From positions 64,001-128,000 of the IMG/VR virus record IMGVR_UViG_3300005330_000014: 64,000 nucleotides of DNA; one strand, given 5' to 3'. Shown here piece by piece: positions 23,561-64,000 of the stretch. The stretch is from a virus. Lineage: Duplodnaviria; Caudoviricetes. Below the pieces are notes generated by a model that had not been told where the DNA came from, ran no database searches, and was given only the letters and a program-made list of their open reading frames with translations. A program made the position numbers and the translations under genes. Numbering within the stretch: position 1 is the stretch's first letter; each line of letters begins with the position of its first letter.

Positions 23561-23588
23561 ATAATTAATAGATTATTACATAAATAGA

Positions 23589-23626
23589 AACGCGCGGAAC
23601 AAATCTTAGACTTTTGTCCGCGCGTT
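23589..23626 (-). terminator. terminator-like hairpin closing the Ro60-like unit
   Basis: AACGCGCGGA/TCCGCGCGTT 10-bp stem, followed by TTTCTATTT on the minus strand. Confidence 0.6.
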
Positions 23627-23639
23627 GCGTTGATTAGGC

Positions 23640-23690
23640 TAGATTCGGTTTTTTGTTTTTGCAGAACGTTTTAGTTGCTGAACGAATCTA
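23640..23690 (-). ncRNA. CAGCAA-motif hairpin, copy 4 (downstream of the Ro60-like gene)
   Basis: TAGATTCG-TTCAGCAA...AAAC-CGAATCTA, 8-bp stem. Confidence 0.6.
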
Positions 23691-23716
23691 AAATTTAGAA
23701 GTAATTAAGTAATTAG

Positions 23717-25261
23717 TTAAATAGTCACTCTATTATACATTTCGTTATTGAGAGTTTCCAATACTTGGTCCAGTGGCGAATACTGACAACCACTAAGTAA
23801 AGTTTTAAATACGCTTGGAGAACTGCCGCTAACAAGCAGAATACCTTTTGCATCAGCCGTGGCTGCACAATTATTTTGTCTAGAATTTACATTCCAAAAT
23901 ACTAATTGAGGCATTTTATATCCAGCCGCCGCATATTTATCTTGAATAGTTTCTAGATTAGTTTTGCCGTTTTGAGGGCTATTAAATTCTACATCAGTAA
24001 TAACAAGAATTTGCGCGGGCATATCTTCCTGTTTGACATTACCTTTTACCGCTTGAATTAAAAGCATATCAAATACTGATTGTAAATTAGTTGAATAAGC
24101 AGGATTTTCTTGCAAACACCGGACTTTTTCTCGAATATTTGCGCCGACAACTTTTTGTAGCACTGGATTGTCTGAATAAGTAATAAAGTAGCCGCCGAAT
24201 GGTCCTTTGTTTTTTTCAGCAGTATAAATACCTAAACTGATAGCAGTTGCCATTGGACGGCCCATCATCGAACCGCTAACATCAACAACAGTTAAAATAT
24301 TTCTAGTTTTATCTTCCATGTAATCAGGAAGTGCATTCCACAAAATATCTAAGGTTTCATCATTATCCCGGGCCATGACTTTTTCAACAATTTCATAAGG
24401 GAAAAGTGCCCCGGCATTAATTTTAGTTTCCCCTTTTTTAACTGCATCAATAAACTTTTGATATCCGGTTTCATCATGCTTCATAAAGGCTTTTTTATAT
24501 CTTAAAGAAGCTTTAGATGGAACAGAGCGATAATTAATATCAGTCCAATGGTTATCTGACATTTTAACTTCAACTACATTAGAATAAGCGCGCAAAGCAG
24601 AAAGAGTTTTACGATATTGTTTAGGAGTCCAACCTAAATAGTGTCTGATTCGCGCCCCTAAAGCACGAGTAATAGTAGAAGAAGTATTTTCACTTGGCAT
24701 CCATTTAGCGCAAGTAGTAATTGGTTTATTGTCATTATACGCTTCTACGTCATTATTAAGAGAAACTTTAATGAATTCAAGTGCTTGATTTGCTACTTTA
24801 GTCCCGAAAAGTACAAATAAATCATCAAATCGACCATAATGAACAATATTACCCAAATTTTGGACTACAATTTCGGGATAATTATCGCCAAGATATTTAA
24901 GAATAATTCGGCAAGTGCGCCGTTCACCTTGTCCGCCGCGAATATTCCGAATATGGAATAACAATTTAATTGAAAGTAGCGGGTCTTCAGCAAAAGACTT
25001 AATAAATAAGTTAACAATATCTTGTTCAGGCCGGGAACGCAAGGCCGCACCCATAGCAAAGAAATCTACTAATGCGTTTAGAGTAGATTTATAAGTTGGC
25101 GCACCGTTTTCAGTCAAAGTCTTATTATCTTCTTTGATCAAACTAGAAAGAAGAGAGTTTGTAACCGGAGCGGCAGGCAATTTAACTTTAACTTTATTTG
25201 CTTTGCGTGGCGCAGTTACAAAATTATTACCAATTTTTTGTTTTTTAGTTGCAGTTTTCAT
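23717..25261 (-). CDS. Ro60/TROVE-like RNA-binding protein (DUF2828 + vWA)
   Basis: TENGA..YKST...LLFHIRNIRGGQGER...AKWMPSE...YRKTL; vWA MIDAS VDVSGSM and ITDVEF. Confidence 0.85.
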   Translation of the reverse strand: MKTATKKQKIGNNFVTAPRKANKVKVKLPAAPVTNSLLSSLIKEDNKTLTENGAPTYKSTLNALVDFFAMGAALRSRPEQDIVNLFIKSFAEDPLLSIKLLFHIRNIRGGQGERRTCRIILKYLGDNYPEIVVQNLGNIVHYGRFDDLFVLFGTKVANQALEFIKVSLNNDVEAYNDNKPITTCAKWMPSENTSSTITRALGARIRHYLGWTPKQYRKTLSALRAYSNVVEVKMSDNHWTDINYRSVPSKASLRYKKAFMKHDETGYQKFIDAVKKGETKINAGALFPYEIVEKVMARDNDETLDILWNALPDYMEDKTRNILTVVDVSGSMMGRPMATAISLGIYTAEKNKGPFGGYFITYSDNPVLQKVVGANIREKVRCLQENPAYSTNLQSVFDMLLIQAVKGNVKQEDMPAQILVITDVEFNSPQNGKTNLETIQDKYAAAGYKMPQLVFWNVNSRQNNCAATADAKGILLVSGSSPSVFKTLLSGCQYSPLDQVLETLNNEMYNRVTI

Positions 25262-25285: not shown

Positions 25286-25336
25286 TAGACAAATTTTGTT
25301 TCTTATCAAGAGAAGTTTAATTACTGGATTTGTCTA
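25286..25336 (-). ncRNA. CAGCAA-motif hairpin, copy 3
   Basis: TAGACAAAT-CCAGTAA...AAA-ATTTGTCTA, 9-bp stem. Confidence 0.6.
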
Positions 25337-25380
25337 AATTGATAAAGTTAAGGAAATGTTTAGGTATTAGGTAAATAGAC

Positions 25381-25427
25381 TAGATGCAGTTTGTTCCATG
25401 AAAAGGGTTAATTGCTGGATGCATCTA
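25381..25427 (-). ncRNA. CAGCAA-motif hairpin, copy 2
   Basis: TAGATGCA-TCCAGCAA...AAAC-TGCATCTA, 8-bp stem. Confidence 0.6.
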
Positions 25428-25497
25428 AATTGAGAAAGTTTAAAGAGGTTATTTAGCTATAGCTTATAGTTTATATAATTTCAGAATTTAAAAATAC

Positions 25498-25548
25498 GAG
25501 ATTCAGTTTTTTCTTTACGTAGAAGATTTTGTTTGCTGGATGAATCTC
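25498..25548 (-). ncRNA. CAGCAA-motif hairpin, copy 1
   Basis: GAGATTCA-TCCAGCAA...AAAC-TGAATCTC, 8-bp stem. Confidence 0.6.
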
Positions 25549-25574
25549 TGACCTATGACACAATGAAGGATTTT

Positions 25575-32978: not shown

Positions 32979-33329
32979 CTACCATCTATTTTTTCTTAAA
33001 TTATTTCTATATTGGGAATAGGGATCGGGATCAACAAATTCTTCCAAATATCTTTCTATCCAAGGATAATATCGTTCTTTATAAAGACACCACGCAAGCG
33101 GGCGCACAATCAAATAATTAATACCTAATAAGCAGCCAACGTAAAAGAATAATGCGCCGCGATCATAATTTAAATTGAATGCCAAAAAGTTGTAATAATA
33201 ACACAACCAAAACATTGAAATCATACCCAAAAGCATTACAAGTTTAAATGTAATTGAGACTAGGGAATAAATAACAAATTGCCGTGCGCGGACTTCTACC
33301 GGGGCGGCATAGAATTGTGTGGAACTCAT
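32979..33329 (-). CDS. membrane protein
   Basis: Two TM segments. Confidence 0.7.
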   Translation of the reverse strand: MSSTQFYAAPVEVRARQFVIYSLVSITFKLVMLLGMISMFWLCYYYNFLAFNLNYDRGALFFYVGCLLGINYLIVRPLAWCLYKERYYPWIERYLEEFVDPDPYSQYRNNLRKNRW

Positions 33330-33358: not shown

Positions 33359-33430
33359 TCGGCGCGCATCGTGTCGAGCGATGTTTCTTCCAATTATAAG
33401 TCGGACCCTGAAACCGTCCAGCCCACGCCG
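33359..33430 (-). tRNA. non-canonical tRNA-like element, anticodon UAU (Ile, AUA)
   Basis: CGGCGTG/CGCGCCG acceptor, CTGG/TCAG D stem, TCCGA-CTTATAA-TTGGA anticodon arm, CATCG-CTCGACA-CGATG T arm; deviates at G8 and C54. Confidence 0.6.
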
Positions 33431-33443
33431 GGAAATTACTAAT

Positions 33444-33749
33444 TTAATCCCATAAAATTACTTCATCAAGTGTTTGTGCGAATTTAAACCCCGGTTCTTT
33501 TTGCTTATTTATATATAATTGAACATATGGGAAAGCTGGGTGGCCGGGCCAATTATCTAAAATTTGTTTAGAGCATCTATCGCATAGCTTTTCTTTAGCT
33601 AATTCAGGATTTGCTTCAATTTCTAATCTAGTATGTCCAAAATTATTCCAAGATGTTGCACGGGGATGCTTTTTGCAGCGCGGACATTTCGGGCGGACAC
33701 CTTTTAAAGATTTAATAGTGACACTAACTTGCAAGTCTGGTTTAGCCAT
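33444..33749 (-). CDS. hypothetical Zn-binding protein
   Basis: CPRC...CDRC. Confidence 0.7.
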   Translation of the reverse strand: MAKPDLQVSVTIKSLKGVRPKCPRCKKHPRATSWNNFGHTRLEIEANPELAKEKLCDRCSKQILDNWPGHPAFPYVQLYINKQKEPGFKFAQTLDEVILWD

Positions 33750-48147: not shown

Positions 48148-48184
48148 TTTTATTTAGTGTAAATATATAACAACACTACTATTT

Positions 48185-49231
48185 ATGATAATATATACCA
48201 AAGAATTAGCAAATCAACTTGTAGAGCTACAGAAAAATGTATCTTTTAAGGAAGCAAGAAAAATTTTAAATATCAGTTACTATCAAGCTAGGAAATTATT
48301 AATAAAATTTGGATTTAAAACCGTTCAAAAAAATAAGCCTTTAATCCCCATTCAAGAAAATTACTTTGAAATTATTGATACCGAAGATAAAGCTTATTTT
48401 TTGGGATTTATAGGGGCAGATGGGTGTATTAATGATAAACACGCTTTATCTATTCACTTACAAAAAGACGATCAGATTATTCTAAAGCAGTTTTTGCATT
48501 ATACAAATAGCCAACATACTATTAAATTCGGAAAAACTAAGAACACAACCAGTTCTTTTCCTGATTTTTTTGAGTGGGCTATGATTTATATCTCTAGGAA
48601 AAATTTCGTACAACATTTATTACAATTGAATATTACCCCTCGTAAGAGTCTCACATTAATTCCTCCGCCAGAAAATAGCATTCCCAATCATTTAATGCAT
48701 CACTTTATAAGAGGTTACTTCGATGGAGATGGCGGGGCTTATTTCAATAGTAACAGTAAAAACATTAAAGGCAAAACTTTATATCAATTTAATGGCTCTT
48801 TCACGGGAACCAAGGAAATGTTAACTTATATTGAGTCGTATTTACATCAACAAGAAATAAAAACTTCTTGGACCAAAAGAATGAAAGATAATTCAAACAA
48901 TTATACTTTATTGATACATGGTAATATACAGGGAACTAAACTATACGAATATATGTATCAAAATCATACAATATGTTTAGACCGTAAATTAATTCTATTT
49001 AAAAAATGTAAAGATATAGCAGAATCAGTTATTAACAATAGAACAAGTAAATATAGATTTATTACAAAATATCCTTCCATTAAGTCTCCTTGGTCTTATC
49101 AATTTAAAATTAATAAAAAGAAATATAGCGGATATGGAGCAACCGAAGAAGAATGCAAAAAGAATCTTAATGCAAAGTATTTGGAAATATCTGGAATAAA
49201 TTTAGGAGAGGGGCTGCGTAGCTTAATTTAA
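48185..49231 (+). mobile_element. free-standing LAGLIDADG homing endonuclease with N-terminal HTH and C-terminal AP2-like segment
   Basis: KAYFLGFIGADG and HFIRGYFDGDG; opposite strand to all neighbours. Confidence 0.9.
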
Positions 49232-49233
49232 TA

Positions 49234-49494
49234 CTAAGAGTATTCCGAATCAGCCAATATTTCTTCATTTAGAAACTCTTCAATTTCCGGCGCTTTTTCA
49301 TCTATATACTTAATTATATCATTCCCTTCACTATCGCTCTGAGGCTCAACTCCTAATCTAGTTTCGCGGGCATCTACTACTTGAACAGCGGAAAGTAATG
49401 CCAGCCATCGTGACAATACTTTTGGTTTCTTCAAGATTTCTCTAGTTAATGTTTCTGCTTGTTGTGGAGAATAAGGTTTTTGATGCTTGCCCAT
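49234..49494 (-). CDS. hypothetical protein
   Basis: ORF track; co-oriented. Confidence 0.7.
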   Translation of the reverse strand: MGKHQKPYSPQQAETLTREILKKPKVLSRWLALLSAVQVVDARETRLGVEPQSDSEGNDIIKYIDEKAPEIEEFLNEEILADSEYS

Positions 49495-56490: not shown

Positions 56491-57138
56491 TTAAGTTTCT
56501 TTATATAAATTCAACTTAATTTCGTCTTCTGTTTTGTTTCCAAACTGGGTAAATGGACCAGAATGCATTTCTGATTGTAACGTTCTAACGCTGGCTTCTG
56601 AAAATTTAGTATATCCATCTAAAAATAGTCTCATAAAATTCATCAACTGCGGACCATACTTTGATTTATTCATTGTTTCAAATATATCCCCGCCAACCAC
56701 ATGGTTTCTACCCCATCTTAATAAAATACCAAAAAGGGCACGTTTCATTTTTCCGTCTTCCGAATCTACCCACCACGGAGAAACACGCACCGCACTAATA
56801 GTAGTTCTAGTGGTCAAGTATAGTTTCGTTCGAGGATGAATATCCAAGAGCGTTTCAATTTGATTGATAAAATCAGCTATATTGGCCGTTAGATTCCCGG
56901 CATGAGCATATAATAGGGAATGCATTTTTTCGCCCCAAACGTTGCCGTGCTCTTCTAAACAATGAGCCCACGTATCATATTTATTAGCTAGCGTTTCATC
57001 GCTGCTTTTCCGGCTAGTACATTCACCTTTCAATCTATTAATTTTTGCTAAAGCAATAAATCCATCATTTGCGTCAGAGGTTTCATCGGGATTGACATCG
57101 TATCCCCAATTTTTTACTAATTTTAATTTTGCTGTCAT
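56491..57138 (-). CDS. CRxxF paralog family protein
   Basis: HCLEEH...SPWW...LFGILLR...LFLDGYTKF; start moved to MTAKLK. Confidence 0.75.
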   Translation of the reverse strand: MTAKLKLVKNWGYDVNPDETSDANDGFIALAKINRLKGECTSRKSSDETLANKYDTWAHCLEEHGNVWGEKMHSLLYAHAGNLTANIADFINQIETLLDIHPRTKLYLTTRTTISAVRVSPWWVDSEDGKMKRALFGILLRWGRNHVVGGDIFETMNKSKYGPQLMNFMRLFLDGYTKFSEASVRTLQSEMHSGPFTQFGNKTEDEIKLNLYKET

Positions 57139-57172
57139 TTTATTCTTATTTAGTTTAGGTTTTAGTTTAAGT

Positions 57173-58117
57173 TTAACTTCCTTCCAATAGATCGATAACC
57201 TTTTGCTTATATTCAAACGTGCCTTTTTCGCAAATAGAAACTTCTATACTTTTTCTAATCATTTTCCCGTCTCCTTCAACCAGACGTTTCATTAGTTCGG
57301 GTCGAAACTGATAACTATCCACGGCGGCATTATAATAATAAGAGGCAATTTTAAAATTGGGTTTAAATAACAAATTATGTAACGCTACGATTCCTCCGCC
57401 GTGCGAAGTAGTAGATAAACCATTGACTGGCATTTCTTCTTTAGTGTAATTATCTTCAATCGGATTCCTAAAGAATGTTTTATAATTATATTTTTTAAAA
57501 AGATTAATCATTCTAAGTAAAGCCGCCGAATATTCTTTATCACAAGATTTATCTACAGGTAAGTCGCCAGATATGACTTTCTTTAGAGTTTCTTGATAAT
57601 TCGTCCCAGCTTGGTGGGCCGGAGACACTCTAATTAGATTTAGATATAAGGCCAACATAGGCAATGCGCGCAGCCACTCGTTAGACCCAACTAAAATAAA
57701 ATATTGATTTTGACTAGTATCTTTTGTCGTGTTTTTGATTAAAAACTCCTGAGAAAGAGGTATCGCCAAGTCTTGTTCAATTTGATTTAAGAAATCTTTG
57801 ATTAAAGATACTAATATATTAATTTCAATATTCTGGTGTTTGTTAGGTATAACAATTAATAGCCTTAAATATTTTGGAATCTTACCGCCGCCCTTAAAAG
57901 CGTCCCAAACATTATCGTTAAAATAATCCTTACACCCTGTAATACCATTATATAATATACGATTATTTTCTGAAAGCCAGCAGAAAGTGATATGTCCTTG
58001 ATCGTAATGGGTAGGAACTTCTATTTTAATTAAACACGGATCAACATCGGAATTGTCTATCTCCGTGATAGGCGCGGCGGCTTCATATTTATATTTAATA
58101 GTTTTAGTTTGTAACAT
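57173..58117 (-). CDS. CRxxF paralog family protein (long form)
   Basis: GCKDYFND...SNEW...LYLNLIR. Confidence 0.75.
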   Translation of the reverse strand: MLQTKTIKYKYEAAAPITEIDNSDVDPCLIKIEVPTHYDQGHITFCWLSENNRILYNGITGCKDYFNDNVWDAFKGGGKIPKYLRLLIVIPNKHQNIEINILVSLIKDFLNQIEQDLAIPLSQEFLIKNTTKDTSQNQYFILVGSNEWLRALPMLALYLNLIRVSPAHQAGTNYQETLKKVISGDLPVDKSCDKEYSAALLRMINLFKKYNYKTFFRNPIEDNYTKEEMPVNGLSTTSHGGGIVALHNLLFKPNFKIASYYYNAAVDSYQFRPELMKRLVEGDGKMIRKSIEVSICEKGTFEYKQKVIDLLEGS

Positions 58118-59697: not shown

Positions 59698-59964
59698 CTA
59701 TTCAAAATCTCGATTTTCGGTTGATACATAATGCTTCATATATGTTTGGAAATCCGCCCGAGTCACGGCAGCCATATCAAAACAACAATCTTCCATAATT
59801 AAAAAATCTTCTTTGGTGTTATTAGTATAAATTCTGGCTACCGCTTCCTTCTCACTGATTTTTCTATACCACTTTCTATTGTATCGAAAATCGAACCCCT
59901 CGGGGATTGCTCCAATTAGCATTATCTCCGCGTGTTGAAATTTTCTAGTAACAAACGTACCCAT
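59698..59964 (-). CDS. small FRYxxxW paralog
   Basis: IPEGFDFRYNRKWYRK. Confidence 0.7.
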   Translation of the reverse strand: MGTFVTRKFQHAEIMLIGAIPEGFDFRYNRKWYRKISEKEAVARIYTNNTKEDFLIMEDCCFDMAAVTRADFQTYMKHYVSTENRDFE

Positions 59965-60000
59965 TATTAATTACGAGTTCTTAGTCGTTTATTTTAAGAA

Positions 60001-60207
60001 TTAATCTTTTTCAAGAACCGCTACCCGATGGCGGCAATTAAATTGTGTAATTGGTAAAAATAGCCATTTACAATCAGTATTGCGCCGCGTTTCTTGACAT
60101 AAATTAGTATCTAATTTTTCGTACCATCGACCATTATATCGGAATTCGCTTTTCGGATTAACCAATTCAAGCTGAACGACCATGAAATGTTTGAAACGCG
60201 AGCCCAT
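60001..60207 (-). CDS. small FRYxxxW paralog
   Basis: VNPKSEFRYNGRWYEK. Confidence 0.7.
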   Translation of the reverse strand: MGSRFKHFMVVQLELVNPKSEFRYNGRWYEKLDTNLCQETRRNTDCKWLFLPITQFNCRHRVAVLEKD

Positions 60208-60282: not shown

Positions 60283-60945
60283 TTAAACTGCTATGATAGC
60301 ACGATCAAAGCAATAATCCGTTAAGCTCCCTTCGATTAGTTTATTTACTAAATTTTGGCAATAAATCACCGCCGGATCATCTAATAACATGCATTCAGGA
60401 TGCGTCTGGATTCCCAACATATTGGTTTTTTTATAATAAACAATTTCTGGCTCAACGGGAGTATCCATTTCTTCCTGATCCCCGCCTTCGTGGTAAGGAG
60501 ATAAATTCTCTGCCCATCCAATAATTTTATAGTCATCAGGTGGTAAATTAAACGGCCATTGTAAATTATGGTGCGTTGAGATTAAATCAAATTCTTGACC
60601 ATCAAAAGTTTTAATATAATGATAAACTGGGTGCCTCATATGTTGCACTAATTTACCGCCAGATAGCACGCTTGCCCCTTGTGAGCTTCGACAAACGCCA
60701 ACAAATGGAATACCCTTTTTAATTACTTGATTAAACAATTCAAATTCATAAATATCCCGAGAAGGATTAGTAGAAACAAAAGGATGTTCTTGTTCTCCAT
60801 AATATTTAGGGGACCAATCTGATCCTCCGGTGCCTAAAACCAATTCCGCTTCATCAATATTATTCGTTAATTCAAAGCCCAATGGAAGAATCCATTTAGC
60901 ATCATGCGCGCCGCCATTAACAACGTATAATTTTCGTTTTTTCAT
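60283..60945 (-). CDS. class I glutamine amidotransferase, peptidase C26 family (second copy)
   Basis: GTGGSD.SP.YYGE, RD..E, GVCR, STHH, QTHPE. Confidence 0.88.
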   Translation of the reverse strand: MKKRKLYVVNGGAHDAKWILPLGFELTNNIDEAELVLGTGGSDWSPKYYGEQEHPFVSTNPSRDIYEFELFNQVIKKGIPFVGVCRSSQGASVLSGGKLVQHMRHPVYHYIKTFDGQEFDLISTHHNLQWPFNLPPDDYKIIGWAENLSPYHEGGDQEEMDTPVEPEIVYYKKTNMLGIQTHPECMLLDDPAVIYCQNLVNKLIEGSLTDYCFDRAIIAV

Positions 60946-62857: not shown

Positions 62858-64000
62858 TTATTCCTCCCAAGAATTAACTACTTCACTGTCATCAATTTCT
62901 AACATTTGGACTCGACGATTTCTGCCGCCAACTTGGACAATTCCTGAAACTACAAATTTCTTACCCATTTTAGTTACCCTTAAATTGGAAACATCAGGAA
63001 ATTCAAACGTTCGATGATTATTAGCATTATTATTAACTGGGGCAGCAACAGCCCGAGGTTGGACAGGAGGCGGAACGGCAACGCGAACAGGTTCAGGTGC
63101 CGGTGCTGGAGCGGCGCGAACTACTGGCGGCGGAGCTACGGGAGCAGGAGGGGCAGGAGCTACGCGGGCAGCTTGCGGGGCGACGACAGCGGCAGGAATA
63201 GCCGGAACAGGAGTAATAGCCGGGACCACTCTATTATTTAATACATCAGTAATTACTCTTGTATAATTTCTTAATGTGGTAGACTCTAGGTTATCCCCCA
63301 AACTAGAACAACTATTCAACTCTAGAACAACGCAATTCCGATTAGTTTCATTGTAACAAATATCTACGCTAGCTAGGTCTAACCCTAAAGCATTCATTGC
63401 TTTAATTGATTCAACTTTAACGCAATCGGGAAGCGTTACTCCTTCACGAGCGAAAATCCATTGACCATGATTTCTAATTTGATAATTAACTTCGGTGCCT
63501 TCTGGAAGGTCTGAGCGAACTTTCTTTTGAATATAATCGAAAATCTTAACTCCATCGCGGTCACGAATCATATGCACACGATATTCATGTTTCTTAGGAA
63601 AATACTTAACATATAATTGAGTGCGAGGACTTAATTGCGCCTCAGTTTCAGCGATAACTAATCCGGCGGCTGAATGTCCATTTAATATTTCCCGGCAAGC
63701 TACCTTGCTCCCCTCGCGAATCCATCGTGCAGCCACCGCGCGATCTTCTGTAAATTCAGGAATTGAAACATTAGCTTCTCTTAATTTAAGAAATGTTTTC
63801 TTTTTGCAAACAGCAATAGCAACGCTACGGGGGTTATTCAACCATCTAACGTTAGCATTATTCCAGACAGGCTGACCAGAAAAACCTAAATTAACAACTA
63901 AATGATTCGGATTATAAGTATAATCACCGTCAGAACGAACACGGGGACAATTTAATGATTGAGCGAGTAAACGGCCCGCTGTAGATGTTGGCTTGTATGC
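62858..64000 (-). CDS. ATP-grasp (RimK-like) peptide ligase with Pro/Ala-rich linker and C-terminal extra domain; starts beyond the right edge
   Basis: Frame stays open to 64000 (AYKPTSTAGRLLAQSL...VVNLG...WLNNP); K...F..L, EYRVH, LDLASVD, VLELNS. Confidence 0.85.
   Translation of the reverse strand, partial: AYKPTSTAGRLLAQSLNCPRVRSDGDYTYNPNHLVVNLGFSGQPVWNNANVRWLNNPRSVAIAVCKKKTFLKLREANVSIPEFTEDRAVAARWIREGSKVACREILNGHSAAGLVIAETEAQLSPRTQLYVKYFPKKHEYRVHMIRDRDGVKIFDYIQKKVRSDLPEGTEVNYQIRNHGQWIFAREGVTLPDCVKVESIKAMNALGLDLASVDICYNETNRNCVVLELNSCSSLGDNLESTTLRNYTRVITDVLNNRVVPAITPVPAIPAAVVAPQAARVAPAPPAPVAPPPVVRAAPAPAPEPVRVAVPPPVQPRAVAAPVNNNANNHRTFEFPDVSNLRVTKMGKKFVVSGIVQVGGRNRRVQMLEIDDSEVVNSWEE

What the first reader, a model, noticed from the sequence alone, without database searches (positions are those of the whole stretch)
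33359..33430. Hidden non-canonical tRNA-like element with a UAU anticodon
Seen: this 72-nt intergenic GC island folds as a full cloverleaf (7-bp acceptor, 4-bp D stem with GG loop, 5-bp anticodon stem with loop CU-UAU-AA, 5-nt variable loop, 5-bp T stem). It breaks universal rules: G8 instead of U8, T-loop CUCGACA (C54), a two-nucleotide D/anticodon connector and C1:G72. Established: most bacteria read AUA with lysidine-modified CAU (TilS), and UAU tRNAs are rare. Inference: it is either a TilS-independent AUA decoder suited to an AT-rich phage, or a tRNA mimic (a decoy for host anticodon nucleases, or a YrlA-like tRNA-mimic partner of the Ro60-like protein). Standard tRNA finders may miss or under-score it.
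Basis: partly seen in the sequence, partly recalled or inferred. Interest (0 to 1): 0.75.

Follow-up and report, generated by a model that had tools for sequence, protein, structure and literature searches.

The report
Divergent phage isoleucine tRNA (UAU)
A 72-base gene hidden between two genes of a 208-kb soil phage is a real but unusually shaped transfer RNA, most likely for reading the isoleucine codon AUA; it is an odd member of a tRNA type common in related phages, not a new kind of RNA.

Summary
Window 33359-33430 (minus strand) is a 58% GC island in a 114-nt gap between two minus-strand genes. It folds as a perfect 7/4/5/5-bp cloverleaf with anticodon loop CU-UAU-AA, G8, T-loop CUCGACA, a 6-nt D-loop and an extra base before the anticodon stem.

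ARAGORN at default settings and Rfam's tRNA model both miss it. It is still not chance. A strict cloverleaf scan of the whole genome finds only three true tRNAs plus this element, against about 0.01 expected from shuffles.

A covariance model built from 12 other phage tRNA-Ile(UAU) genes scores it 41.8 bits (E about 4e-12). That is above some of the phage's own true tRNAs.

Related jumbo phages carry 10-28 tRNAs, often including tRNA-Ile(UAU). Non-U8, non-U54 and a 6-nt D-loop each occur in their tRNAs. The extra base matches a 6-bp anticodon stem in one relative's tRNA.

Best reading (about 0.5): a divergent, TilS-independent AUA decoder. ATA makes up 16 per 1000 of the phage's codons.

Rivals are a decaying relic and a tRNA-derived RNA that does not decode. 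The Ro60/YrlA idea has no support.

No orthologue and no expression data could be obtained. The scan has noted similar divergent phage tRNA-Ile(UAU) genes on other DNA.

The parts
33359..33430 (-). Whole tRNA-like gene: 72 nt including discriminator A at 33359; no CCA is encoded.
   Evidence: Sequence. Cloverleaf minimum-free-energy fold. ARAGORN tRNA-Ile(tat) at -ps80 to -ps82. Model R2 scores it 41.8 bits, E 3.9e-12.
33424..33430 (-). Acceptor stem, 5' strand (CGGCGUG). It pairs with 33360-33366 to give 7 bp, one of them U.G. It includes C4:G69.
33408..33423 (-). G8 and G9, then the D arm: stem CUGG/UCAG (4 bp, one G.U) and a 6-nt loop ACGGUU. A14, a GG pair and U20 U21 are kept. U8 and R15 are not.
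   Evidence: One search shows model R2 aligning the D arm only partly.
33406..33407 (-). Two G residues between the D stem and the anticodon stem (canonical tRNA has one). The second G faces A in the 26:44 position.
   Evidence: The same GG-UCCGA context occurs in the G001 tRNA(CUA), where ARAGORN draws the second G as a sixth anticodon-stem pair, G.U.
33389..33405 (-). Anticodon arm: stem UCCGA/UUGGA (5 bp, including C29:G41) and loop CUUAUAA. The anticodon UAU lies at 33396-33398.
33384..33388 (-). Variable loop, 5 nt (AGAAA).
33367..33383 (-). T arm: stem CAUCG/CGAUG (5 bp, G53:C61) and loop CUCGACA. This has C54 in place of U54; U55, C56, G57 and A58 are kept.
   Evidence: Loops UUCGACA and AUCGACA occur in 10 other phage tRNA-Ile(UAU) genes.
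33360..33366 (-). Acceptor stem, 3' strand (CGCGCCG).
33444..33749 (-). Upstream gene on the same strand (context). It encodes a 101-aa protein with two CxxC pairs and ends 13 nt before the element.
   Evidence: It has no Pfam or PHROG family. One distant homologue exists, and its gene is followed directly by the next gene.
32979..33329 (-). Downstream gene on the same strand (context). It encodes a 116-aa hydrophobic protein and starts 29 nt after the element.
   Evidence: No homologue was found.

Best explanation
The element is a tRNA gene of the phage tRNA-Ile(UAU) kind with a divergent core.

Inferred mechanism:
- It is transcribed with its flanking minus-strand genes.
- Host RNase P and a 3' nuclease cut it out, and the host CCA-adding enzyme adds CCA.
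- Host IleRS charges it with isoleucine.
- It reads AUA codons without needing lysidine (TilS). It would join the phage's other tRNAs for A-ending codons: Gly-UCC, Leu-UAA, Lys-UUU and Arg-UCU.

Shown here: the cloverleaf, its statistical significance, its recognition by a tRNA-Ile(UAU) model, and the presence of most Ile identity elements.

Inferred only: transcription, processing, charging and decoding.
For: 1. Perfect cloverleaf. Only three true tRNAs share this quality in the genome. About 0.009 are expected by chance.

2. Model R2 was built from 12 phage tRNA-Ile(UAU) genes and did not include this element. It scores the element 41.8 bits, E 3.9e-12, with filters off over the 64-kb window. 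Only tRNA-Arg (63.8) and tRNA-Lys (50.5) score higher, and the next hit is 10.2 bits. In the rest of the genome, tRNA-Leu scores 32.7, and tRNA-Gly and tRNA-Cys are not reported at E<=1.

3. In the reverse direction, model R1, built from the element alone, pulls true tRNAs out of related phages. These are G012 tRNA(CAU) at 30.3 bits, E 6e-6, and G001 tRNA(CUA) at 23.4 bits. Rfam scores the same two at 68.8 and 57.4 bits. The G001 tRNA shares GGUCCGACU...AAUUGGA with the element.

4. Relatives found through the DUF7275 nucleotidyltransferase carry 10-28 tRNAs each. Five of them have a tRNA-Ile(UAU) that ARAGORN detects at default settings. This phage has no other tRNA-Ile(UAU).

5. The oddities have precedents among the relatives' tRNAs:
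- non-U8 in 8 of 75;
- A54 in 5 of 75, including the tRNA-Ile(UAU) of G012 and G017 with loop AUCGACA;
- a 6-nt D loop in 1 of 75;
- for the extra G, the same GG-UCCGA context in G001, where ARAGORN pairs the second G into a 6-bp anticodon stem.

6. Elbow and identity features are kept: A14, GG, U55, C56, A58, G53:C61 and G26.A44. Of the bacterial Ile identity set in PMC9976931 (Table 1), A73, C4:G69, C29:G41, A35, U36, A37, A38 and U20/U21 are present. C4:G69 is shared with 10 of the 12 family members.

7. All 21 stem pairs are intact even though several loop and core positions deviate. This argues for selection on the fold.

8. ATA makes up 16.0 per 1000 codons and 20% of Ile codons. That is similar to AGA (13.7 per 1000), for which the phage keeps a tRNA.

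9. The cloverleaf has an ensemble frequency of 0.19, within the 0.07-0.49 range of the phage's ARAGORN-called tRNAs.
Against: - Rfam RF00005 gives no hit at E<=10, which I estimate means below roughly 11-14 bits.
- ARAGORN needs an 82% threshold, where most hits are noise.
- G8, C54, no R15:Y48 pair, no nucleotides between position 15 and the GG, and an extra base before the anticodon stem all occur together in one molecule. I found that combination in no other tRNA.
- U12:A23 of the Ile identity set is absent (the element has U11:A24 and G12:C23).
- E. coli IleRS charges a UAU-anticodon tRNA-Ile about 360-fold less well than the lysidine form (PMC3575796). The phage encodes no class-I synthetase of the IleRS type.
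- No orthologue exists, so covariation cannot be tested. Copies from other samples are 100% identical.
Confidence: 0.5

Rival explanations
1. It is a decaying tRNA relic. A former tRNA-Ile(UAU) gene is no longer used, in a lineage that has shed most of its tRNA genes.
For: This phage has only 5 tRNAs that Rfam detects at E<=10, four of them above the gathering score. Relatives have 10-28. It also holds two other low-scoring tRNA-like genes: an 86-nt GUU gene at genome 40634-40719 and a CAU gene at genome 170653-170727. ARAGORN calls both, and Rfam misses both. In the element, several near-universal core positions are changed together. No orthologue has been retained elsewhere.
Against: All 21 stem pairs are intact, with only 3 wobble pairs. 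Neutral decay that changed five or more of about 30 unpaired positions should also have broken several of the 42 paired ones. The anticodon loop, the elbow nucleotides, G53:C61 and A73 are all kept. The GC island persists in a 35% GC genome. The R2 score exceeds that of true tRNAs in the same genome.
Confidence: 0.2
2. It is a tRNA-derived structured RNA that is processed but does not decode. It could be an RNase P/Z punctuation signal separating the two flanking messages. It could be a decoy or sponge for a host tRNA-targeting nuclease or modification enzyme. It could be a substrate of the nearby RNA ligase and nucleotidyltransferase.
For: The fold is under apparent selection while core positions important for canonical tRNA function (U8, U54, 15:48) are not kept. 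It sits between two co-oriented genes. An RNA ligase gene (PF09414, phrog_548) and a DUF7275/DUF7277 gene lie 0.8-2.6 kb upstream.
Against: A canonical anticodon loop and most Ile identity elements are kept, and a mere processing signal does not need them. In relatives, only the 126-aa gene stays next to the DUF7275 gene. No tRNA-like element does, and the ligase is close to it in only a few loci. So the adjacency here is not conserved. No anticodon nuclease specific for tRNA-Ile is known to me (own knowledge).
Confidence: 0.2
3. It is a YrlA-like tRNA-mimic partner of the phage's Ro60-like protein.
For: The same window holds a DUF2828/DUF7788 protein gene (23717-25261) that the scan reads as Ro60-like, with small hairpin RNAs next to it.
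Against: The element has a complete anticodon arm where YrlA carries the Ro-binding helix (own knowledge of YrlA). It lacks the AUCCAGYAA handle shared by the hairpins at 25300-25560. It lies about 8 kb away with many genes in between. Model R1 finds no related copy near that gene.
Confidence: 0.03
4. It is a chance cloverleaf, or only a promoter. A perfect -10 hexamer TATAAT lies in the 'anticodon loop', with TGGACG 16 nt upstream.
For: The promoter scan lists this site at 10 of 12 matches. The folding-energy z-score is only -0.65. ARAGORN at the same threshold gives dozens of false hits.
Against: Promoter-like sites in the region occur at the chance rate: 6 found, 5.9 expected. Perfect cloverleaves are expected at about 0.009 per genome. 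The R2 score of 41.8 bits stands against 10.2 for the best noise hit. The T loop and the G53:C61 pair are specific to tRNAs.
Confidence: 0.04

Closest known systems
Phage-encoded tRNA-Ile(UAU) genes. Examples are those of related uncultivated jumbo phages (G002, G004, G012, G013, G017), IMG/VR loci L095-L148, metagenome locus L092, and the gene annotated in Sinorhizobium jumbo phage AP-J-162 (PMC11242549).
   Same: Same anticodon loop CUUAUAA, 5-nt variable loop, G53:C61, T loop ending UCGACA, discriminator A73, C4:G69 and pyrimidine at position 1, as in the five closest relatives. The setting is also the same: an AT-rich large phage with tRNAs for A-ending codons. R2 scores the element 41.8 bits.
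   Different: Those genes have U8 or A8 (one has G at position 8 in the 7/5 reading), D loops of 7-12 nt with GCUC/GAGC-type stems, one base before the anticodon stem, and U54 or A54. ARAGORN finds all but one (L122) at default settings, and Rfam scored the one I could check (G012) at 54 bits. The element combines G8, C54, a 6-nt D loop and an extra base, and both tools miss it. No sequence-level orthologue was found.
Bacterial TilS-independent tRNA-Ile2(UAU), as in Mycoplasma mobile and some Lactobacillus, Bifidobacterium and Neorickettsia (PMC3575796). Also the Bacillus subtilis suppressor tRNA-Ile1(UAU) (PMC3919564).
   Same: A UAU anticodon that would read AUA without lysidine.
   Different: Those are cellular tRNAs with canonical cores. 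In M. mobile they are matched by an adapted IleRS (Arg865) and ribosome. Here the host IleRS is unknown, the phage encodes none, and the core is non-canonical.
Bacterial and phage tRNA-Ile2(CAU, lysidine), such as the G012 tRNA(CAU).
   Same: The anticodon arm is nearly identical (UCCGA-CUCAUAA-UCGG in G012, UCCGA-CUUAUAA-UUGG here). It is the best hit of model R1 at 30.3 bits.
   Different: Position 34 is C there and U here. The rest of the G012 molecule is canonical (Rfam 68.8 bits).
YrlA/Y RNA tRNA-like modules bound by Ro60/Rsr
   Same: A tRNA-like fold encoded in a genome that also encodes a protein read as Ro60-like.
   Different: No Ro-binding helix or handle motif is present. The anticodon arm is complete. 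The element is not adjacent to the protein gene.

Membership tests
tRNA (Rfam RF00005 / canonical cloverleaf) | Cloverleaf with a 7-bp acceptor, D arm, 5-bp anticodon stem with a 7-nt loop (U33, R37), 5-bp T stem with a 7-nt loop, and a discriminator base | tested here: met
   21 of 21 pairs form. It is one of only 4 perfect hits in the genome. About 0.009 are expected by chance.
tRNA (Rfam RF00005 / canonical cloverleaf) | Score at or above the Rfam gathering threshold (29 bits), or detection by ARAGORN at default settings | tested here: not met
   No RF00005 hit at E<=10. ARAGORN reports it only at -ps82 or lower. tRNAscan-SE was not available.
tRNA (Rfam RF00005 / canonical cloverleaf) | Conserved tertiary nucleotides: U8, A14, R15:Y48, G18 G19, U54 U55 C56, A58, G53:C61 | tested here: inconclusive
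   Present: A14, GG, U55, C56, G57, A58, G53:C61, G26.A44. Absent: U8 (G), U54 (C), R15:Y48 (C and A). Accepted tRNAs of related phages also lack U8 (8 of 75) or U54 (5 of 75).
tRNA (Rfam RF00005 / canonical cloverleaf) | Transcribed, end-processed, CCA-tailed and aminoacylated | not testable with these tools
Phage tRNA-Ile(UAU) | Anticodon UAU in a canonical loop, and significant similarity to other members | tested here: met
   Model R2, built from 12 members without the element, scores it 41.8 bits, E 3.9e-12. It is the third best hit in the 64-kb window and the next hit is 10.2 bits.
Phage tRNA-Ile(UAU) | Conserved orthologues with compensatory stem changes | tested here: not met
   No orthologue with the element's own features turned up in viral, metagenome or genome pattern scans, in 27 related phage records, or among cultured phages. 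The only other copies are 100% identical.
Bacterial isoleucine identity set (PMC9976931 Table 1) | A73, C4:G69, C29:G41, A35, U36, A37, A38, U20, U21 | tested here: met
   All are read directly from the sequence under the cloverleaf numbering.
Bacterial isoleucine identity set (PMC9976931 Table 1) | U12:A23, G16, and G34 or lysidine-34 | tested here: not met
   The D stem has U11:A24 and G12:C23. G16 cannot be assigned in the shortened D loop. Position 34 is U, which E. coli IleRS accepts about 360-fold less well than lysidine.
YrlA-like Y RNA (Ro60 partner) | A Ro-binding helix or handle joined to the tRNA-like module, and a location next to the Ro60/Rsr gene | tested here: not met
   No handle motif is present, the anticodon arm is complete, and the element is about 8 kb from the DUF2828/DUF7788 gene.

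The most novel reading that the evidence does not exclude
The element is not a decoder but a phage tRNA mimic. It keeps the anticodon arm and elbow of tRNA-Ile(UAU), while its altered core (G8, C54, shortened D loop) stops normal use in translation. It would then act as a decoy or sponge for a host tRNA-targeting defence or modification enzyme, or as a dedicated substrate of the neighbouring RNA ligase and DUF7275 nucleotidyltransferase.
Probability: 0.12. Interest if true: 0.7.

Novelty: new variant of a known kind. Interest (0 to 1): 0.4.

Why it matters
- Standard annotation would leave this gene out. The phage's tRNA set, and its apparent dependence on host TilS and tRNA-Ile2 for 16 per 1000 of its codons, would then be misjudged.
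- The element shows how far a phage tRNA core can drift (G8, C54, a 6-nt D loop, an extra base before the anticodon stem) while every stem stays paired.
- It adds to a pattern, seen elsewhere in this scan and in related phages, that phage tRNA-Ile(UAU) genes are common and structurally relaxed.
- If it is charged and used, it gives a natural test of which 'universal' tRNA nucleotides bacterial RNase P, IleRS, EF-Tu and the ribosome can do without.
- If it is not charged, it is a candidate tRNA mimic.

Tried and rejected
- **Orthologues by DNA pattern.**
  - The exact 17-nt T arm gave 6 hits in viral contigs, all chance matches in unrelated GC-rich sequence.
  - Anticodon loop plus the exact T loop gave none.
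  - Anticodon arm plus UCGA in metagenome contigs gave one canonical phage tRNA-Ile(UAU) (L092) and one chance hit.
  - Two patterns in 185,579 bacterial and archaeal genomes gave none.
  - blastn against cultured phages gave only insignificant fragments.
- **Orthologues by synteny.**
  - The 101-aa, 116-aa and 126-aa neighbour proteins have no relatives in IMG/VR by peptide scan.
  - The 101-aa protein has one distant homologue. Its gene is followed directly by the next gene, with no spacer.
  - The 116-aa protein has no homologue.
  - Contigs carrying identical proteins are 100% identical over 4-5 kb, so they hold no variation.
  - Neighbourhoods of DUF7275 homologues in relatives hold no tRNA-like element.
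- **Duplication within the phage.** Rejected. The element does not align closely with tRNA-Lys or tRNA-Arg.
- **Intrinsic terminator.** Rejected. No T run follows any hairpin on the minus strand.
- **Phage-encoded partner enzymes.** No IleRS-type synthetase (PF00133) and no TilS-type domain (PF01171) is present.
- **ARAGORN sub-threshold hit as evidence.** Rejected, because 46 other sub-threshold hits appear at the same setting.

Full report
**What is there**

The window is part of a 208,233-bp, 34.8% GC virus record. At 33359-33430 on the minus strand lies a 72-nt stretch of 58% GC. It fills most of the 114-nt gap between two minus-strand ORFs: 33444-33749 (101 aa) and 32979-33329 (116 aa).

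Read 5' to 3' on the minus strand, it has the following parts:
- a 7-bp acceptor stem (C1:G72, one U.G pair);
- G8 and G9;
- a 4-bp D stem (CUGG/UCAG) around the loop ACGGUU;
- two G residues;
- a 5-bp anticodon stem (UCCGA/UUGGA) around the loop CUUAUAA;
- a 5-nt variable loop;
- a 5-bp T stem with G53:C61 around the loop CUCGACA;
- discriminator A, with no CCA encoded.

RNAfold returns this cloverleaf as the minimum-free-energy structure for the element alone and for the whole intergenic spacer. Its ensemble frequency is 0.19, within the 0.07-0.49 range of the phage's ARAGORN-called tRNAs.

**Is it more than chance?**

Three measures on their own say no:
- The folding-energy z-score is -0.65.
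- ARAGORN reports the element only when its threshold is lowered to 82%, where 53 hits appear in the genome against 7 at default.
- Rfam's tRNA model gives no match at E<=10, either in a 301-nt search or over the whole genome.

The architecture says yes. I scanned both strands of the genome with a descriptor asking for 7/4/5/5 paired stems, U33 and R37, D loops of 4-11 nt, one or two connector bases and a variable loop of 4-5 nt.
- Exactly four loci are perfect: tRNA-Gly, tRNA-Lys, tRNA-Arg and this element. Allowing one mismatch adds no new locus.
- In 222 shuffles that keep composition in 100-nt blocks, two perfect cloverleaves appeared in all, about 0.009 per genome.
- The weaker hits with 2-3 mismatches almost all lie in coding sequence and have T loops unlike those of tRNAs.

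**Relation to real tRNAs**

No close relative of the phage exists in IMG/VR by the small flanking proteins. The DUF7275/DUF7277 protein two genes upstream has many homologues in contigs of about 170-240 kb. An alignment of these homologues retrieved 53 related viral loci.

A covariance model made from the element alone (R1) was run over 27 of those records.
- It hit G012 tRNA(CAU) at 30.3 bits (E 6e-6) and G001 tRNA(CUA) at 23.4 bits.
- Rfam scores these two at 68.8 and 57.4 bits, so they are true tRNAs.
- The G012 tRNA has a lysidine-type anticodon arm that differs from the element's mainly by C34 in place of U34.
- The G001 tRNA shares GGUCCGACU-NNN-AAUUGGA with the element, including the second G before the stem. 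In G001 that G pairs with U to give a 6-bp anticodon stem. In the element it faces A, as in a normal G26.A44.

The relatives carry 10-28 tRNAs each. Among 135 tRNAs extracted from 11 of these records, five are tRNA-Ile(UAU) genes that ARAGORN finds at default settings. A loop-based pattern scan of viral contigs found ten more tRNA-Ile(UAU) genes with T loops UUCGACA or AUCGACA. A metagenome scan found another.

I aligned twelve non-redundant members. Their consensus cloverleaf shows compensatory changes at all 20 pairs. From this alignment I built model R2, which does not include the element.
- With filters off over the whole 64-kb window, R2 scores tRNA-Arg 63.8 bits, tRNA-Lys 50.5, the element 41.8 (E 3.9e-12), and then nothing above 10.2.
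- Over the rest of the genome, tRNA-Leu scores 32.7 and the 86-nt GUU gene 26.3. tRNA-Gly and tRNA-Cys are not reported at E<=1.

The element is therefore recognised as a tRNA of this kind at least as well as several of the phage's accepted tRNAs. I take descent from a tRNA as close to settled, at about 0.9.

**How unusual is the core?**

Most of the deviations have precedents in tRNAs of the related phages that ARAGORN accepts at default settings:
- position 8 is not U in 8 of 75 parsed tRNAs (one is G);
- position 54 is A in 5 of 75, including the tRNA-Ile(UAU) of G012 and G017, whose T loop is AUCGACA;
- one tRNA has a 6-nt D loop;
- the extra G before the anticodon stem recurs in the G001 tRNA(CUA), though there it pairs into a 6-bp stem.

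The five closest tRNA-Ile(UAU) genes also begin with a pyrimidine, as the element does. What sets the element apart is that G8, C54, the shortened D loop and the extra base occur together. In addition, C15 and A48 cannot form the usual 15:48 pair.

The nucleotides that build the elbow are kept: GG, U55, C56, A58 and G53:C61. A14 and G26.A44 are also kept.

**Function**

The bacterial isoleucine identity set is listed in PMC9976931.
- Present: A73, C4:G69, C29:G41, A35, U36, A37, A38 and U20/U21.
- Absent: U12:A23.
- Not assignable: G16.
- C4:G69 is shared with 10 of the 12 family members.

ATA accounts for 16.0 per 1000 codons and 20% of Ile codons in the phage. That is comparable to AGA at 13.7 per 1000, for which the phage keeps a tRNA. 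The phage's canonical tRNAs (Gly-UCC, Leu-UAA, Lys-UUU, Arg-UCU) read A-ending codons, and a UAU tRNA fits that set.

The phage encodes no IleRS-type synthetase and no TilS-type enzyme, so the host IleRS would have to accept U34. E. coli IleRS does so about 360-fold less well than it accepts lysidine. IleRS enzymes with Arg or Lys at the Trp905 position accept it well (PMC3575796).

The intact 21 of 21 stem pairs, set against several changed unpaired positions, argue against neutral decay. This argument is an inference, not a measurement.

My probabilities are:
- functional AUA decoder, about 0.5;
- non-functional relic, about 0.2;
- tRNA-derived RNA with another role (processing signal, decoy, or ligase/nucleotidyltransferase substrate), about 0.2;
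- Ro60 partner, about 0.03;
- chance or promoter only, about 0.04.

**The Ro60/YrlA idea**

The gene at 23717-25261 matches DUF2828 and DUF7788. Upstream of it lie hairpins that share an AUCCAGYAA handle. The element lacks that handle, keeps a full anticodon arm, and lies about 8 kb away. It has no R1-detectable paralogue near the gene. I found nothing that links the two.

**Context**

An RNA ligase gene (PF09414, phrog_548) and the DUF7275/DUF7277 gene lie 0.8-2.6 kb upstream. In relatives, only the 126-aa gene stays next to the DUF7275 gene. The ligase, the two small flanking genes and any tRNA-like element do not. The neighbourhood is therefore not evidence of a functional link.

**Limits**

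No orthologue of the element with its own features was found anywhere. The only other copies are 100% identical. Covariation within the element's own lineage could not be tested. tRNAscan-SE was not available.

**Novelty**

Phage tRNA-Ile(UAU) genes are already annotated, for example in Sinorhizobium jumbo phage AP-J-162 (PMC11242549). Bacterial UAU decoders are well studied (PMC3575796, PMC3919564). Earlier notes of this scan describe other divergent phage tRNA-Ile(UAU) genes on other DNA, one with G8 and T loop AGCGACA. I used these notes only as a lead for the pattern scan.

The element is best described as an extreme structural variant of a known kind. It is of moderate interest, mainly as an annotation blind spot and as a natural test of which tRNA core nucleotides are needed.

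Noticed in passing
own genome G000:C1 40634-40719 (+), outside the window (window coordinate about -23366): An 86-nt tRNA-like gene with an 8-bp acceptor stem, a 5-bp T stem, a long variable arm and anticodon GUU. ARAGORN calls it tRNA-Asn, Rfam gives no hit at E<=10, and R2 scores it 26.3 bits. A type-II (long-arm), 8/5-shaped tRNA with an Asn anticodon is odd. It may be a recoding or allo-tRNA-like species.
   Followed up: partly
own genome G000:C1 170653-170727 (+), outside the window: A tRNA(CAU) called by ARAGORN but missed by Rfam at E<=10. Its T loop is UGCAAAU (G55), its D loop has no GG, and one anticodon-stem pair is mismatched. I did not determine whether it is Met, initiator or Ile2 type.
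   Followed up: partly
L076, L077, L081, L082, L087 (relatives G002, G004, G012, G013, G017): All five tRNA-Ile(UAU) genes of the related jumbo phages have an unpaired 1:72 position (C.A or U.U) with a pyrimidine at position 1. Three of them encode CCA.
   Followed up: no
L072:13900-13974 (G001) and L085:667-738 (G015): Related phages carry tRNA(CUA) genes of amber-suppressor type. ARAGORN labels them 'Pyl'. The G001 gene has a 6-bp anticodon stem. Whether these phages reassign TAG was not checked.
   Followed up: no
L107:10152-10225 (-): A viral tRNA-Ile(UAU) that ARAGORN draws with an 8-bp acceptor stem and a 4-bp T stem (8/4), with G8 paired to U.
   Followed up: no
own genome intergenic gaps, e.g. 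49122-49243, 57128-57281, 87561-87716 (window 23561-23716), 63153-63303, 165073-165172: A GC-rich motif, GCGCGG followed by AC or CU, recurs inside hairpins in many intergenic GC islands of this AT-rich genome. It may be a terminator or a regulatory stem. It is not present in the tRNA-like element.
   Followed up: no
window 25300-25560 (-): Three hairpins upstream of the DUF2828/DUF7788 gene (23717-25261) share a loop-side handle AUCCAGYAA.
   Followed up: partly
window 33393-33420 (-): A sigma-70-like pair (TGGACG, 16 nt, TATAAT) overlaps the D arm and the anticodon loop. It could drive the downstream 116-aa gene, but such sites occur at the chance rate in this region.
   Followed up: partly
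own genome 44-66 kb, just upstream of the window: This region is rich in non-coding GC islands (e.g. 48167-48644, 59750-60119, 60387-60782) that no tRNA finder explains. They may be further small RNAs.
   Followed up: no
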